This document shows positions 3,801-9,800 of a stretch of DNA of 64,000 nucleotides, one piece after another (position 1 is the first letter of the stretch; each line of letters starts with the position of its first letter). The stretch lies in the NCBI RefSeq assembly GCF_016026235.1, contig NZ_CP065613.1, one strand, 5' to 3'. The position numbers are program-made. Source of the stretch: Escherichia coli. GTDB taxonomy: Bacteria > Pseudomonadota > Gammaproteobacteria > Enterobacterales > Enterobacteriaceae.

Positions 3801-6800
3801 ATTGCACAGCCCCGCCCGTAATTTCTGACCGTTATCCGTTCACCCGCAGCAGACGTAATCCCCGGCCTGCCGGCGGCATTCTGCTGCCTGTTATATCCCC
3901 GTGAGGAATATGAAAATGAAACAACAGTATCAGACCCGCTACGAATGGCTCCACGAAAGCTACCAGAAATGGCTGACCGGCTTCACCCGGCACGCCGTAT
4001 CCTGGGGCGTGTGTCATCCGAATATCTACTACTTCCATAATCTGACGCCCGGTTGGGTGTCATTCAATGGTGAAAAACCGGAGATTGCCATCGTACCCCA
4101 GAGCCTGCACCGGCTGATTTATGGCCCTGACAAACGGGCCACGCCGCCCCTGGATGATGATCTGATCGTGAATTTATGCACCAGTGAACATCTGCTGGTT
4201 CATCATCCGATGCTGGAAGGCATTCTCCTGTCTGAATGTGAACGTCTGAGGCAGCGTTCTCTGGCAAATAAACTGATCAGCCTCTTCCGTCAGTTTGGTG
4301 GCACGGAGTTGCGCCTCAAACTGGTCTGGCTTTGCTGGCTTGATTTAATGACCGGAAACAGCCTTGAAGACTGGAAAGAGAACCTGAAACGGAAATCAGA
4401 AAAAGAGCTGGAGGAATGGATCATCAACCGTCAGAGGCAGAGCGCAGCACTGACGGATCTGATGGATCAGTACGTGCTCCTGGCATACCGCACAACGGTT
4501 GACGATAACCGCAACTGATGCCGGTTGCTTCCGGAAGGTGTGACAAAATACGGAAATGATGATGCTCCCGGCCCCGCATGCTCACCTGCAGAGCGTGTTC
4601 GTCGTCATCATACTGAGCCATGACGGGCGTCTTAAGGGCATCCTGTCATTGCTGAGCAGGCAACACCACCAGAGGAGCCACGGACAGGGATGTTCTTTAC
4701 AGCCCGATGCACGCCAGGTTCTCAGCAGACTGAATGTGCAGGTGCGGTTATTCACCAGAAATGGCATGCTGCGGTACATACCCATCCTGGTGACAATATG
4801 TACGTGGCGACAGCGATCCCGGCACTGTGGAAGAGACTCACTCAGCCTGCAGGATATTCTTTCCGGCATCCGGGAATGTCCGCCTGAATGCAAACAGGAT
4901 GATATTTGAATCCGTAATACTGTTCTTTCATCATAAATAATTTATGCAGATACAGTTAACCGTCACAGTAGCAGGTTTGTTTTCCCGGGAAATAATATCC
5001 GTCAGACTGATGCCGGAACATATCTGAAACACGTTATGATGTTTTGTTATCAGAAATGTTGTATATTCTTATCCGTGACGGCAGTTTAATGCCCTCTGGT
5101 ATCACCTGATAATGCATATCCTGCGATGATTCGTTATATTTACGGGACACGTCTCTTTTCATTGTGCTCCTTTTCAGACTTCATTTTCCATAAGTGTTCC
5201 CCGGCATAAAGGAGGTACCTTTCTGGCGTTTATAACTCTCTTTATCGGTGACGCCGGTAATACAGGGAATACCACACCGACAAACGAGGTATTAACGGAC
5301 GATATTTCAGTGTCCATAATTTTGCTGTCCGGTTAAATAACGTCAGTCTGCTGCCCTCTGACTGTAATCATCAAAGCCGGAATGCATACCGGGTTACAAC
5401 GTAAAAAAAGTGATGCTGGCCCCCGGTGCAGCTGGCGGGCGAAACATGTTTACCTTTCAATACCCCCTGTCTGCAGTCTCCACTCTTCCATCCTCTTAAG
5501 CTACGTCGGCCACATGAGTGCACTTCCATGATAACAGGTATTCCTGTCAGCATAACGAAGCCGGTTACCTTCCCTTCCTCCTGCATTTCCTATCAGAATG
5601 ACTGTACAGCGCGCAGATTGCCTTTTTATTGACCACCTTAATATACCATTATAAACTTCTTTTTATCATGTTATTATCACCTTATTATGTTTAATTTTTA
5701 AGCAGCCAGAGAAAGAGGATGGTTCAGAAAATTTTGTCGGATAAGGTTATGAATGAAAGAACAAATGCGTATTACTCTTATTATCTTGGAGGGCGTAATA
5801 TCTCCGTACTGCCCCTTAATGTTTATGATCCCCCGGAACGTTTTATCGCTTACATAAAAAAAAACAGAGAAAATCTGAACATCACACTTTCAGATTTTGA
5901 ACTTGAACAAATAATTTCTGGTATGCGTCTGAAGGCCCTGGCCTTCCTGGTCCCCCTGGAAAAAATATCCTGGATCGCAGGCAGTGAACGCGCATGCTTA
6001 TTTTCCTGGTATCTGTTGATGCAGTTTATCCAGAATAACAGGGCAAAAATAAGCGCAGACTTGCTTCAAAAGAATAAACTGTATCTTAAAGAAGAGTATC
6101 TGGAAGGGAATGCCTTCCCGTCGGACTCATCGACACAGTTCAGACAAATACTCAGAGTTCTCGATATTCTTTCTGATAAGAATTTGCGGGATGAGTGGAT
6201 AATCCAGACCAAAGACAGATGGATACGGGCATTTAAATCAAAGAGTCCTTTCAGTTACCTCCTCCCGGAGAACGAACATGAATGCATATGGACATGGAAT
6301 TATTTGAAGGGAAAAAATATTGCACTGGAAAAACTGGCCAGTTTTCCTGATTCTGCTGATATTTACCACGCAATTCACCTTTCATTTGACATATGGGTTA
6401 CCTGTACACTCACCTCACCTGACGATATAAAAAATTTCAGAAACAGTTTCAATAAGGCCAAGGCGCAGCGCAAGTACAAAAAAATGCAGGAAGATAAAGT
6501 CAATGTACAGTTTTTTCTTGACGCAGAAACCAGGGCGCAGCTCAAAGAATTATCGAGGGTCAGAAGACTCAGTACCGGCGAAATGCTGCATGACCTGATT
6601 GTTGAAGAGTATAAAAGGTACCGACATTCCAGATAATTTCAGACATATATTATCTCCGTGAGTCCCCCGCCACCTTTCCGGTGTGCGGGGTTTTTGTCTT
6701 TTTTCACCGGGAATACATGTATGAATCCGTCTGATGCCATTGAGGCAATTGAAAAACCGCTCTCCTCCCTGCCTTACTCACTTTCCCGTCACATCCTGGA

Positions 6801-9800
6801 ACATCTGCGCAAACTCACCAGTCACGAACCCGTGATTGGCATTATGGGTAAAAGCGGGGCCGGTAAATCCTCACTCTGTAATGCACTGTTTCAGGGGGAG
6901 GTCACCTGAGGGATCCCCAGAAAATTTAGTAAACCATTATCATATTGGTATACCGTTGCTGTAGAACTTTCAGCCCTGCGTCAAGTGACAGTGTGTTTAG
7001 TATGAGTGGAGAATGTCGAATCACATTCTCCGCCAGTTTTAATAACGAGATGACTCGCCTGTGCTTCACTGTATTTGCCTGATATTTATGATGTATCCCT
7101 TTGTTTTCCAGGCTGAAACCGCTTAACCACATAATGATACTGGCTAATGTTGCGATCAGACTCAATACCGTGACCCGCCCGGATGAATGACTGGCACCAA
7201 ACCGTAATCCAAATCCCCAGCGAGGATTTTTTTCATCCCTGAAATTTTGCTCAATTTGCATTCTACGGCTGTATAATTTCATTACCTGTTTTGGCGAGAA
7301 CTCAGTACTGTTTGTGAAAATAAACCATGGTGATTTCCCGGCAGTACGAGCTTTAGCCGTCACCGATGGTCTGGTTGCTCTTTCCTTCGAGCGTTTAAAT
7401 CAACGACCTTTAGGCTTACTTTTATAAAGATAAAAATGCCCTTCATGTTGTGCATTTTTATCTCGACCCAGCAGGCCTTCACCTAAATAAATTGCTGTCG
7501 TTGATGCTTTTGTGCCTGAGTCCGACACCTTTTCCCAGCCATTACCAACATTGTAATAATGATTGCCCAGTACCCGGCAAATATAGGTCCAGCCACGGGA
7601 GCGGAGCTGTTGGAACCATCGCCCCTGAAAACCGGCATCTGTAATAACAATGACATCAGTCCCGGGGGAAAAGCACTCAGCAAGCGATTCCAGAAAACGC
7701 TCATGTACATCTGCATTCGCTGTCTGTGATGATGGAACGACACAACTCATCAACGGTAAAGAACGCCCGTCACATGCCAGGCTTGCCCGCAAAAGCTGAA
7801 AACGAGAGGCATGATAAGCACTCCAGTCAATGAGTATCACAACACGAGACATTCCCCGCGTAATCTTTTGGGTAATTCGCTGAAAAATGGTGGAAACCTC
7901 ATTTTGCAAATGTCGATTCCCCAACAGTCGATCCACCCGCTTTATTTTGTTTTTAACTGATGCCGTACCGGTTAAATGACGCCCGATACTGGTAAGTGTG
8001 AGGGAAGCGCCATTTATTACAGCATTAGTTGCGTCAATCAGTGATTTTTGACGGTAAAGATGCAAAGGGGCCAGTATGTTGTTAAGGAAATTTTGGCATA
8101 ATGAACGTGCAGGCATAGTGGTGATCTCCTTGAAATTGTTAGCACAATCAATTAGATCACATCTCACTATGCCTGTCTTGTTTTCTGGGGATTCCTCAGG
8201 GGAGGTCACCCCGGTCAGTGATGTTCACGCCGGCACCCGGGAAGTGCGGCGCTTCCGTCTGAGTGGCCACGGTCACAGCATGATTATCACTGACCTGCCC
8301 GGGGTGGGCGAGAGCCGGGACAGGGATGCAGAGTATGAAGCCCTGTACCGTGACATTCTGCCTGAACTTGACCTGGTACTGTGGCTGATTAAAGCCGATG
8401 ACCGTGCCCTGTCTGTGGATGAGTATTTCTGGCGACACATCCTGCACCGGGGACATCAGCAGGTGCTGTTTGTGGTGACGCAGGCCGACAAAACGGAGCC
8501 CTGCCATGAATGGGATATGGCCGGCATTCAGCCTTCTCCCGCACAGGCACAGAACATTCGTGAGAAAACAGATGCGGTATTCCGGCTGTTCCGGCCCGTA
8601 CATCCGGTTGTGGCCGTATCGGCCTGCACCGGCTGGGAACTGGATACGCTGGTCAGTGCGCTCATGACAGCGCTTCCCGACCATGCCGCCAGTCCCCTGA
8701 TGACCCGCCTGCAGGACGAGCTGCGCACGGAATCTGTCCGGTCTCAGGCCCGTGAACAGTTTACCGGTGCGGTGGACCGGATATTTGACACGGCGGAGAG
8801 CGTCTGTATTGCCTCTGTTGCACGCACGGTTCTGCGTGCCGTCCGTGACTCGGTGGTCTCTGTTGCCCGCGCTGTATGGAACTGGATTTTCTTCTGAACA
8901 GTCTGCCAGGGGAAATGCCTGATTACATTGCGTTAACCAACTGAAAACATGATACACCCCCCTCATATCCACCTCTTTCTCTTGCGTGACTGCCTTGCTG
9001 TTAATAGAATAAAACGATCGATAAAACAGGTATCGATCGTTGATATCGATCGTTTATAGTGGTTAATGGCCTGCGAAAAGGCAGCTGAATCTCTTCATCA
9101 TGCAGAACGGAATTGCACACAACGGACTGATACTTCTCTGGCGGATGAGAGAGGGGAAGCATTTATGTCCGGGAAAAACCACTTTATCTGACCATGCTGT
9201 TTTGTACCTGCCGGTATCCACATTTGTGGGTACCGGCTTTTTTATTCACCCTCTGTAAGGAAAAGCTGATGAAACGACATCTGAACACCAGCTACAGGCT
9301 GGTATGGAATCACATTACGGGCACCCTGGTGGTGGCTTCCGAACTGGCGCGCTCACGGGGAAAACGCACCGGTGTGGCGGTTGCGCTGTCTCTTGCTGCT
9401 GTCACGTCAGTCCCGGTACTGGCTGCTGACACGGTCGTACAGGCGGGAGAAACCGTGAGCGGCGGAACACTGACAAATCATGACAACCAGATTGTCTTCG
9501 GTACGGCCAACGGAATGACCATCAGTACCGGTCTGGAGTATGGGCCGGATAACGAGGCCAATACCGGCGGACAATGGATACAAAATGGCGGTATCGCCAA
9601 CAACACTACTGTCACCGGTGGTGGTCTTCAGAGAGTGAATGCTGGAGGAAGCGTTTCAGACACGGTTATCAGTGCCGGAGGCGGACAGAGCCTTCAGGGG
9701 CAGGCAGTGAACACCACTCTGAACGGCGGTGAGCAGTGGGTACATGAAGGCGGGATTGCAACGGTTACCGTCATTAATGAGAAGGGCTGGCAGGCCGTCA

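What the first reader, a model, noticed from the sequence alone, without database searches (positions are those of the whole stretch)
6658..8897. YeeP-family GTPase gene split by an IS10-like element whose own transposase carries a nonsense codon
The insertion is flanked by a ~9-10 bp duplication (GGAGGTCAC, encoding GEVT on both sides), showing a true transposition event into an intact gene. Copy A's transposase has TGA at 7400-7402 where copy B (41279-42572) has AGA, plus at least two synonymous differences, so copy A is probably immobile unless complemented in trans by copy B.
Basis: seen in the sequence. Interest (0 to 1): 0.35.

Follow-up and report, generated by a model that had tools for sequence, protein, structure and literature searches.

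The report
ISEc60 insertion splitting the yeeP gene
A known 1.3-kb jumping gene (ISEc60, a distant relative of IS10) sits inside the yeeP GTPase gene of an O143 E. coli and has a stop codon in its own transposase; this is ordinary gene decay, except that the same stop codon is in five copies in this genome assembly and in no other genome checked.

Summary
A complete 1294-bp insertion sequence (6906-8199, transposase on the minus strand) splits the yeeP orthologue after codon 62. It is flanked by a 10-bp duplication (GGGAGGTCAC), not 9 bp. An uninterrupted site that is 100% identical exists in E. coli SW07091.

The element is ISEc60 (IS4 family). Its transposase is 36% identical to that of IS10 and 52% identical to that of ISSfl1. 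Copy A differs from copy B (41279-42572) at three bases:
- 7402, which turns AGA into TGA at codon 239 of 396
- 7207 and 8078, both synonymous

The stop removes the third catalytic residue (E289) and the YREK motif, so copy A cannot encode an active transposase.

The same TGA occurs in five ISEc60 copies of the source assembly (GCA_900449985.1). It occurs in none of 92 copies in 5426 complete E. coli genomes. All five copies lie at insertion sites shared with other strains. A sister assembly has the identical yeeP insertion with an intact transposase.

So the stop codon most likely arrived after insertion, by gene conversion between IS copies. An assembly or polishing discrepancy is the alternative, and raw reads are needed to decide. 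This is an ordinary finding of low interest.

The parts
6721..6909 (+). yeeP 5' fragment: codons 1-62, containing the P-loop GKSGAGKS. It ends at a TGA formed across the junction with the IS end (ACC|TGA).
   Evidence: the same 62-aa gene is called in the source assembly (L017)
6896..6905 (.). left copy of the 10-bp target-site duplication GGGAGGTCAC
   Evidence: present once at the empty site in L001
6906..8199 (-). ISEc60 copy A, 1294 bp and complete. It has imperfect terminal inverted repeats, with 18 of the first 20 bases matching.
7403..8116 (-). transposase codons 1-238, which include D97 and D160. This is the only product copy A can make from its start codon.
   Evidence: called as a 238-aa gene in the source assembly
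7400..7402 (-). premature TGA at codon 239, where copy B and every other ISEc60 examined have AGA (Arg)
6926..7399 (-). the rest of the transposase frame, codons 240-396 plus the stop. It carries Y282-R285-E289-K296 (the YREK motif with the catalytic E) and is cut off from translation by the TGA.
7207..7207 (.). synonymous base private to copy A: A here, G in copy B, in the four other TGA copies and in the sister assembly's yeeP copy
8078..8078 (.). synonymous difference from copy B. Copy A has the majority ISEc60 allele (G on the + strand). Copy B has the minority allele, which is also seen in L014 and L015.
8200..8209 (.). right copy of the 10-bp target-site duplication GGGAGGTCAC
8200..8897 (+). 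yeeP 3' fragment, containing the G3 motif DLPG and the G4-like TQADK. It has no start codon of its own. Gene callers extend it to an ATG at 8169 inside the IS end, giving a 242-aa fusion ORF.
41279..42572 (-). ISEc60 copy B, with an intact 396-aa transposase. Its 10-bp duplication AGGATTTCTC lies at 41269-41278 and 42573-42582. It is inserted in the ugd-gnd intergenic hairpin.
   Evidence: empty site 100% identical in E. coli D10

Best explanation
**Shown.** ISEc60 is an IS4-family DDE insertion sequence. It inserted by ordinary cut-and-paste-type transposition into a short palindromic target in the yeeP orthologue of a CP4-44-like island, in an O143 E. coli lineage that carries many IS copies. 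The insertion duplicated 10 bp. It separates the P-loop (codons 1-62) from the rest of the GTPase domain, so yeeP is a pseudogene. It is one of several genes hit by an IS in this strain: flu just downstream is split by an IS21-family element, and motA by another ISEc60.

Copy A has intact ends, but AGA has become TGA at codon 239. This truncates the transposase before catalytic E289 and the YREK motif. Copy A is therefore non-autonomous.

**Inferred.**
- The element was intact when it inserted, because a sister strain has the same insertion with an intact gene.
- The nonsense base arose later in one copy of the source lineage. It then spread to at least five resident copies by homologous gene conversion between the roughly 1.3-kb identical repeats.
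- Any future movement of copy A would need transposase from intact copies such as copy B. That is probably inefficient if ISEc60 shares the cis preference of IS10.
For: - **Anatomy and duplication:**
- **Identity of the element:** RefSeq calls it ISEc60. It matches NCBIfam IS4 model NF033591 at 360 bits against a cut-off of 152, and Pfam DDE_Tnp_1.
- **Empty sites:** both are 100% identical to the flanks, copy A's in SW07091 and copy B's in D10.
- **Catalytic residues:** D97, D160 and E289 align with positions 97, 161 and 292 of an IS10A-family transposase, which are the IS10 catalytic residues by my own knowledge. The stop at codon 239 lies upstream of E289.
- **The TGA is derived and confined to one assembly:**
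  - 17 copies fetched from four other assemblies (L007-L016, L027, L031) all have A at this position.
  - None of 92 places in 5426 complete genomes matches the TGA version.
  - The exact 238-aa product is on record only in GCA_900449985.1, at five places.
- **All five TGA copies sit at insertion sites shared with other strains:**
  - yeeP, cysJ side, nupC/pdeA and fryC are shared with GCA_031665325.1, where they read AGA.
  - A hybrid copy in FDAARGOS_943 joins the fryC and pdeA junctions and also reads AGA.
  - motA is shared with five short-read assemblies.
- **The flanks are nearly identical:** one SNP and one 14-nt indel in about 16 kb. The window (5669-11397) and the sister locus differ only at 7207 and 7402.
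- **Recombination between IS copies is active in this lineage:** some copies lack matching duplications, and FDAARGOS_943 has the fryC/pdeA hybrid copy.
Against: - Four or more conversions of one base, with almost no change in unique DNA, is a lot for neutral events in a short time.
- Two independent assemblies, the sister and FDAARGOS_943, disagree with the source at the shared sites. The tools did not tell me the sequencing or polishing methods of any of these assemblies, so a computational cause on either side cannot be excluded.
- No experiment shows that ISEc60 transposase prefers to act in cis.
- Low-level readthrough of UGA cannot be excluded.
Confidence: 0.5

Rival explanations
1. A TGA subfamily is old. 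One copy acquired the stop early in the IS expansion of this clone. Because its ends were intact, transposase from intact copies moved it in trans to motA, yeeP, cysJ, pdeA and fryC. The sister and FDAARGOS_943 assemblies read AGA only because short-read polishing replaced a minority allele with the majority one.
For: - Five copies share the identical stop, four of them on an otherwise identical sequence.
- Every IS-internal difference between source and sister has the minority allele in the source and the majority allele in the sister. This includes the private base at 7207.
- None of the nine sister copies read has a private variant.
Against: - Two independently made assemblies would both have to be homogenised.
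- The sister still keeps the C/T polymorphism at IS position 122 between copies (L014 and L015), so its copies are not fully homogenised.
- IS10-type transposases act poorly in trans (my own knowledge).
- No TGA copy is at a site known to be private to the source.
Confidence: 0.2
2. The TGA calls, and the private base at 7207, are consensus errors of the source assembly. Copy A really encodes an intact transposase and is autonomous.
For: - The allele exists in this one assembly only.
- The sister assembly has the identical insertion with AGA, and differs from the window only at the two bases where copy A departs from the ISEc60 consensus.
Against: - A random error would not hit the same base in five copies while sparing copy B 34 kb away.
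- Unique flanks agree perfectly with the sister over three of the four loci compared, about 12 kb, so the assembly is accurate there.
- The site is neither a homopolymer nor a structured or quasi-palindromic context.
Confidence: 0.22
3. The same A-to-T change arose independently in five copies at a mutational hot spot, for example by template switching at a quasi-palindrome.
For: Only the recurrence itself.
Against: - Folding either allele as single-stranded DNA gives -7.0 against -6.7 kcal/mol, with z-scores near -0.6. No hairpin is improved by the T.
- None of 92 copies in other genomes has the change.
Confidence: 0.03
4. One reading: a single private nonsense mutation makes copy A the one dead copy, with copy B as its helper.
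For: Within the 64-kb window, only copy A has the stop.
Against: Four more copies elsewhere in the same assembly carry the same stop.
Confidence: 0.03

Closest known systems
ISEc60 (IS4 family), as named in RefSeq annotation
   Same: Copy B is 1294 bp and its 396-aa transposase is 100% identical to copies annotated as ISEc60 in EIEC strain CFSAN029787 and others. Copy A is 99.8% identical at the DNA level.
   Different: Copy A carries AGA to TGA at codon 239 plus one private synonymous base. The TGA was not found in any of 92 copies in complete E. coli genomes.
IS10 (the IS of Tn10)
   Same: - DDE transposase of the same family, 36% identical over 372 aa (E 5e-76), with D, D and E and the Y-2-R-3-E-6-K motif aligned.
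- Similar termini, CTGA(R)G(R)ATCCCC.
- A symmetric target preference.
   Different: - A 10-bp rather than a 9-bp duplication.
- 1294 bp rather than 1329 bp (IS10 length from my own knowledge).
- No Rfam RNA-OUT match at E up to 1.
- Only 36% identity.
- Cis preference and antisense control are untested for ISEc60.
ISSfl1 of the Shigella flexneri invasion plasmid
   Same: It is the nearest named relative found, 51.6% identical over the whole transposase.
   Different: It is a different element. Its ends and target were not compared.
yeeP pseudogene of E. coli K-12 (CP4-44 prophage)
   Same: Same locus upstream of isrC and flu. It is 97% identical over the 555 nt that K-12 retains. Both are inactivated.
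   Different: K-12 lacks the 5' part of the gene. Here the whole gene is present but split by an IS after codon 62.
IS expansion and pseudogene formation in EIEC and Shigella
   Same: This is a many-copy IS in an invasive-type serogroup (O143 wzy). IS insertions hit motA, flu and yeeP here. EIEC lineages are reported to have raised IS counts (PMC7373316).
   Different: That paper does not mention ISEc60. I did not show that this strain carries the invasion plasmid.

Membership tests
IS4 family insertion sequence (ISEc60) | DDE transposase matching the family models above their curated cut-offs | tested here: met
   NF033591 at 360.5 bits (cut-off 152); PF01609 at 74 bits (cut-off 23), for copy B's protein
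IS4 family insertion sequence (ISEc60) | Y-(2)-R-(3)-E-(6)-K signature around the catalytic E | tested here: met
   YSRRMQIEQNFRDEK at residues 282-296 aligns with YAKRMQIEETFRDLK of an IS10A-family transposase. In copy A it lies downstream of the stop codon and is not translated.
IS4 family insertion sequence (ISEc60) | Terminal inverted repeats and a direct target duplication | tested here: met
   18 of 20 terminal bases match. A 10-bp duplication is present at 10 distinct sites.
IS4 family insertion sequence (ISEc60) | Near-identity to elements already named ISEc60 | tested here: met
   99.8% DNA identity and 100% protein identity to RefSeq-annotated ISEc60 copies
IS10 in the strict sense | 9-bp target duplication | tested here: not met
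   10 bp at both window copies and at eight other sites. The base after the right end differs between copies (G or A), so it is not part of the IS.
IS10 in the strict sense | RNA-OUT antisense RNA at the transposase-proximal end | tested here: not met
   No Rfam match to RNA-OUT at E up to 1 in 6600-9300. No sigma-70-like promoter was found in 7900-8300. Neither is a sensitive test.
IS10 in the strict sense | Close transposase identity to IS10 | tested here: not met
   36% identity: related, but not the same element
IS10 in the strict sense | Transposase acts preferentially in cis | not testable with these tools
   Needs a complementation assay
YeeP / MMR_HSR1 GTPase of CP4-44-type islands | GTPase domain with G1, G3 and G4 motifs | tested here: met
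   For the reconstructed 290-aa protein, PF01926 at 55 bits (cut-off 21.9). GKSGAGKS, DLPG and TQADK are visible.
YeeP / MMR_HSR1 GTPase of CP4-44-type islands | Orthology and synteny with K-12 yeeP-isrC-flu | tested here: met
   97% identity to the K-12 yeeP remnant; IsrC (Rfam family IS102 RNA) at 9014-9250; Ag43 downstream
YeeP / MMR_HSR1 GTPase of CP4-44-type islands | GTP binding or hydrolysis, and a biological role | not testable with these tools
   I know of no established function

The most novel reading that the evidence does not exclude
The nonsense allele is real and has been favoured. The 238-residue N-terminal fragment keeps the end-binding part of the transposase but lacks the catalytic E. 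It would then act as a trans-dominant inhibitor of ISEc60 transposition, comparable to truncated-transposase repressors of other elements. Its spread to five copies by conversion would be a genome damping its own IS burst.
Probability: 0.06. Interest if true: 0.5.

Novelty: already known. Interest (0 to 1): 0.15.

Why it matters
It matters little on its own. It is one more IS-made pseudogene in a strain that has several IS-interrupted genes, and yeeP is already a pseudogene in K-12.

The only point worth a follow-up is methodological and evolutionary. One base distinguishes five IS copies of one assembly from the same copies in sister assemblies. That makes a clean test case for two things:
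- how fast identical IS copies exchange sequence by gene conversion
- how far polishing pipelines rewrite minority alleles in repeats

Anyone counting 'active' versus 'dead' IS copies from assemblies should be aware of this.

Tried and rejected
- **Quasi-palindrome hot spot at the TGA site.** Folding both alleles as DNA showed no hairpin that the T improves. Rejected.
- **IS10-style antisense RNA or outward promoter.** There was no Rfam RNA-OUT hit and no promoter-like site at the transposase-proximal end. The idea that the IS drives the 3' yeeP fusion ORF or flu therefore has no support.
- **Solved-structure relatives by sequence.** Nothing meaningful came back. The catalytic residues were placed by alignment to an IS10A-family protein instead.
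- **Look-up of the 62-aa YeeP fragment.** At first it seemed to show the insertion in hundreds of assemblies. Those contigs end in intact-gene sequence (...GGTCACCC), not in the IS, so they are not insertions. The right-junction 242-aa ORF gave the true distribution of four assemblies.
- **Complete E. coli genomes.** None carries either the yeeP or the ugd-gnd occupied site.
- **Literature.** The assembly accessions gave no hits. 'ISEc60' appears in only two unrelated resistance surveys.
- **Other copies in the window.** No solo ends or extra ISEc60 remnants were found.
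Full report
**What is there.** The stretch 6658-8897 holds a gene split by an insertion sequence. The IS runs from 6906 to 8199 (1294 bp). A second copy runs from 41279 to 42572. The 19-nt end motif CTGAGGRATCCCCAGAAAA occurs exactly four times in the window, at these four ends, against 0.02 expected by chance. The terminal inverted repeats match at 18 of the first 20 bases.

Copy A is flanked by GGGAGGTCAC on both sides (6896-6905 and 8200-8209), and copy B by AGGATTTCTC. The base that follows the right end is G in one copy and A in the other, so it belongs to the target. The duplication is therefore 10 bp, not 9. Eight further copies fetched from other loci also have 10-bp duplications.

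**The two copies.** They differ at three positions:

| Window position (copy A) | Copy A | Copy B | Effect |
|---|---|---|---|
| 7207 | A | G | synonymous |
| 7402 | A | T | TGA versus AGA at codon 239 (minus strand) |
| 8078 | G | A | synonymous |

The transposase is on the minus strand, with its ATG at 8116-8114 and its stop at 6928-6926. Position 7402 makes codon 239 TGA in copy A and AGA in copy B. Apart from the stop, the two translations are identical.

**What the element is.** RefSeq annotation of near-identical copies calls it 'IS4-like element ISEc60'.
- The 396-aa protein of copy B matches NCBIfam IS4 model NF033591 at 360 bits (cut-off 152) and Pfam DDE_Tnp_1.
- It is rare. Only 14 of 5426 complete E. 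coli genomes hold a near-full copy. These include enteroinvasive strain CFSAN029787 and FDAARGOS_943, which has more than 30 copies.
- The nearest named relative is ISSfl1, at 51.6% amino-acid identity. IS10A-family and ISVsa5 transposases are 36% identical.
- The ends resemble those of an IS10A-family element: CTGAAGAATCCCC there against CTGAGGAATCCCC here.
- No RNA-OUT match was found.

'IS10-like' is fair as a loose description. The element is not IS10, and it fails IS10's 9-bp duplication criterion.

**The insertion is a real transposition.** I joined the two flanks with a single copy of the 10-mer. This gives a 1297-bp sequence that is 100% identical to E. coli SW07091. There it encodes an intact 290-aa 'GTPase family protein', between a hypothetical gene and an Ag43 gene and downstream of cobUST. 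1323 genomes carry a place that covers at least 80% of that query. Copy B also has a perfect empty site, in strain D10 inside the ugd-gnd intergenic hairpin.

**The gene that was hit.** It is the orthologue of K-12 yeeP.
- The 3' 555 nt are 97% identical to the K-12 yeeP remnant.
- It is followed by IsrC, a match to the Rfam family IS102 RNA at 9014-9250, and then by flu.
- The reconstructed protein matches Pfam MMR_HSR1.
- The IS separates the P-loop (codons 1-62, which end at a TGA formed across the junction) from the G3 and G4 motifs. Neither piece can be a GTPase.
- Gene callers extend the 3' piece to an ATG at 8169 inside the IS end, giving a 242-aa ORF. I found no promoter-like site that would drive it.

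**Consequence of the stop.** I aligned the protein to an IS10A-family transposase. ISEc60 residues D97, D160 and E289 fall on the IS10 catalytic residues D97, D161 and E292 (their identity is my own knowledge of the IS10 literature). Y282-R285-E289-K296 falls on the YREK signature. Termination at codon 239 removes E289 and the signature, so copy A cannot make an active enzyme, although its ends are intact. The codon is followed by T. To my knowledge that is not a leaky context, so only trace readthrough is expected (inference).

The exact 238-aa truncated product is on record in a single assembly, GCA_900449985.1, and there at five places:
- motA
- the yeeP site, which is this window
- a site next to cysJ
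- nupC/pdeA
- fryC

Four of these copies are identical to each other. Copy A has one extra private base, at 7207.

Seventeen copies fetched from four other assemblies (L007-L016, L027, L031) all read AGA. An 81-nt probe around the stop found 92 places in complete E. coli genomes, and none was a perfect match. The TGA is therefore derived and confined to this assembly.

All five sites are old insertions shared with other strains.
- Sister assembly GCA_031665325.1 has the cysJ-side, pdeA and fryC insertions with the same junctions. Over 5.2-kb alignments of the pdeA and fryC loci, the only difference is this one base. The cysJ-side locus also has one flank SNP and a 14-nt indel.
- The sister also has the yeeP insertion. 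Its locus L031 differs from window 5669-11397 at only two bases, 7207 and 7402. Those are exactly the positions where copy A departs from the ISEc60 consensus.
- FDAARGOS_943 carries a hybrid copy joining the fryC and pdeA junctions, and it reads AGA.
- The motA insertion recurs in five short-read assemblies.

Flank divergence between source and sister is one SNP and one 14-nt indel in about 16 kb.

**What this means.** The yeeP insertion was most likely made by an intact element, and the stop came later. Transposition cannot place a new allele at an already occupied site. If both assemblies are right, the allele must have spread by gene conversion between IS copies. This lineage does show recombination between IS copies: some copies lack matching duplications, and FDAARGOS_943 has the hybrid copy.

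There are two alternatives.
- The TGA subfamily is ancestral and was moved in trans. The other assemblies would then have lost it when short-read polishing imposed the majority allele. This fits the fact that every IS-internal difference runs from the minority allele in the source to the majority allele in the sister. Against it, the sister keeps another between-copy polymorphism, at position 122.
- The source consensus is wrong. This fits the allele being unique to one assembly. It is hard to reconcile with copy B being spared, with perfect agreement over three of the four flank comparisons (about 12 kb), and with a sequence context that is not error-prone.

A recurrent hot-spot mutation is not supported, because there is no quasi-palindrome. 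The tools did not tell me the sequencing platforms of these assemblies, so I cannot rank the two computational explanations more firmly.

**Context.** The O-antigen polymerase in the window is of the O143 family, which is a classical enteroinvasive serogroup (my own knowledge). Raised IS counts in EIEC lineages are documented (PMC7373316). I did not test for the invasion plasmid.

**Verdict.** It is a known element doing a known thing: an IS-made pseudogene plus a degenerate IS copy. The one unresolved curiosity is why the same single-base stop sits in five copies of one assembly only. Interest is low.

Noticed in passing
window 9194-14702: The Ag43 (flu) gene downstream of yeeP is itself split by an IS21-family element: istB at 11252-12001 and istA at 12013-13554, both on the minus strand. 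The 5' part ends at 11194. The 3' part (13722-14702) matches Ag43 model positions 630-948.
   Followed up: partly
window 9014-9250: A match to Rfam 'IS102 RNA' (76.7 bits, E 2e-12) lies between yeeP and flu. This is the IsrC small RNA annotated at the same place in K-12. It is intact and 815 bp from the IS.
   Followed up: partly
window 41269-42582: Copy B sits inside a GC-rich hairpin (GCCCGGAG-GATTT-CTCCGGGG) in the ugd-gnd intergenic region, just downstream of gnd (my guess: its terminator) and next to an O143-type O-antigen cluster. No complete E. coli genome has this site occupied, and D10 has the perfect empty site. The effect on gnd termination or ugd expression is unknown.
   Followed up: partly
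10 ISEc60 insertion sites (window copies A and B; L002, L005-L007, L012, L014-L016): The targets share a symmetric consensus, G|GNGANNTCNC|C, where the bars mark the 10-bp duplication. G is invariant at the first duplicated base and C at the base after the duplication. This is a target preference similar in style to IS10's but with a different sequence.
   Followed up: partly
L008 1918-4515 (GCA_031665585.1): Two ISEc60 copies lie head to tail, separated by only 10 bp (GGGATTTACC), with GGGATTTTCC outside both. This is either a tandem dimer or an insertion immediately next to a resident copy.
   Followed up: no
L004/L013, L011, L027: Several ISEc60 copies lack matching duplications. FDAARGOS_943 has a hybrid copy joining the fryC left junction to the pdeA right junction. 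These are signs of rearrangement by recombination between IS copies.
   Followed up: partly
L002 / L028 (source assembly, contig UGFA01000005.1): motA is interrupted by a TGA-type ISEc60, which predicts a non-motile strain. The same junction occurs in five short-read assemblies.
   Followed up: partly
L018-L026: In the nine contigs read (the index lists 463 blocks of the collection), contigs from unrelated assemblies end at exactly codon 62 of yeeP-like genes in intact-gene context (...GGTCACCC). That is two bases past the ISEc60 target. It is probably a branch point between yeeP, ykfA and yfjP paralogues in assembly graphs, but I did not check this.
   Followed up: no
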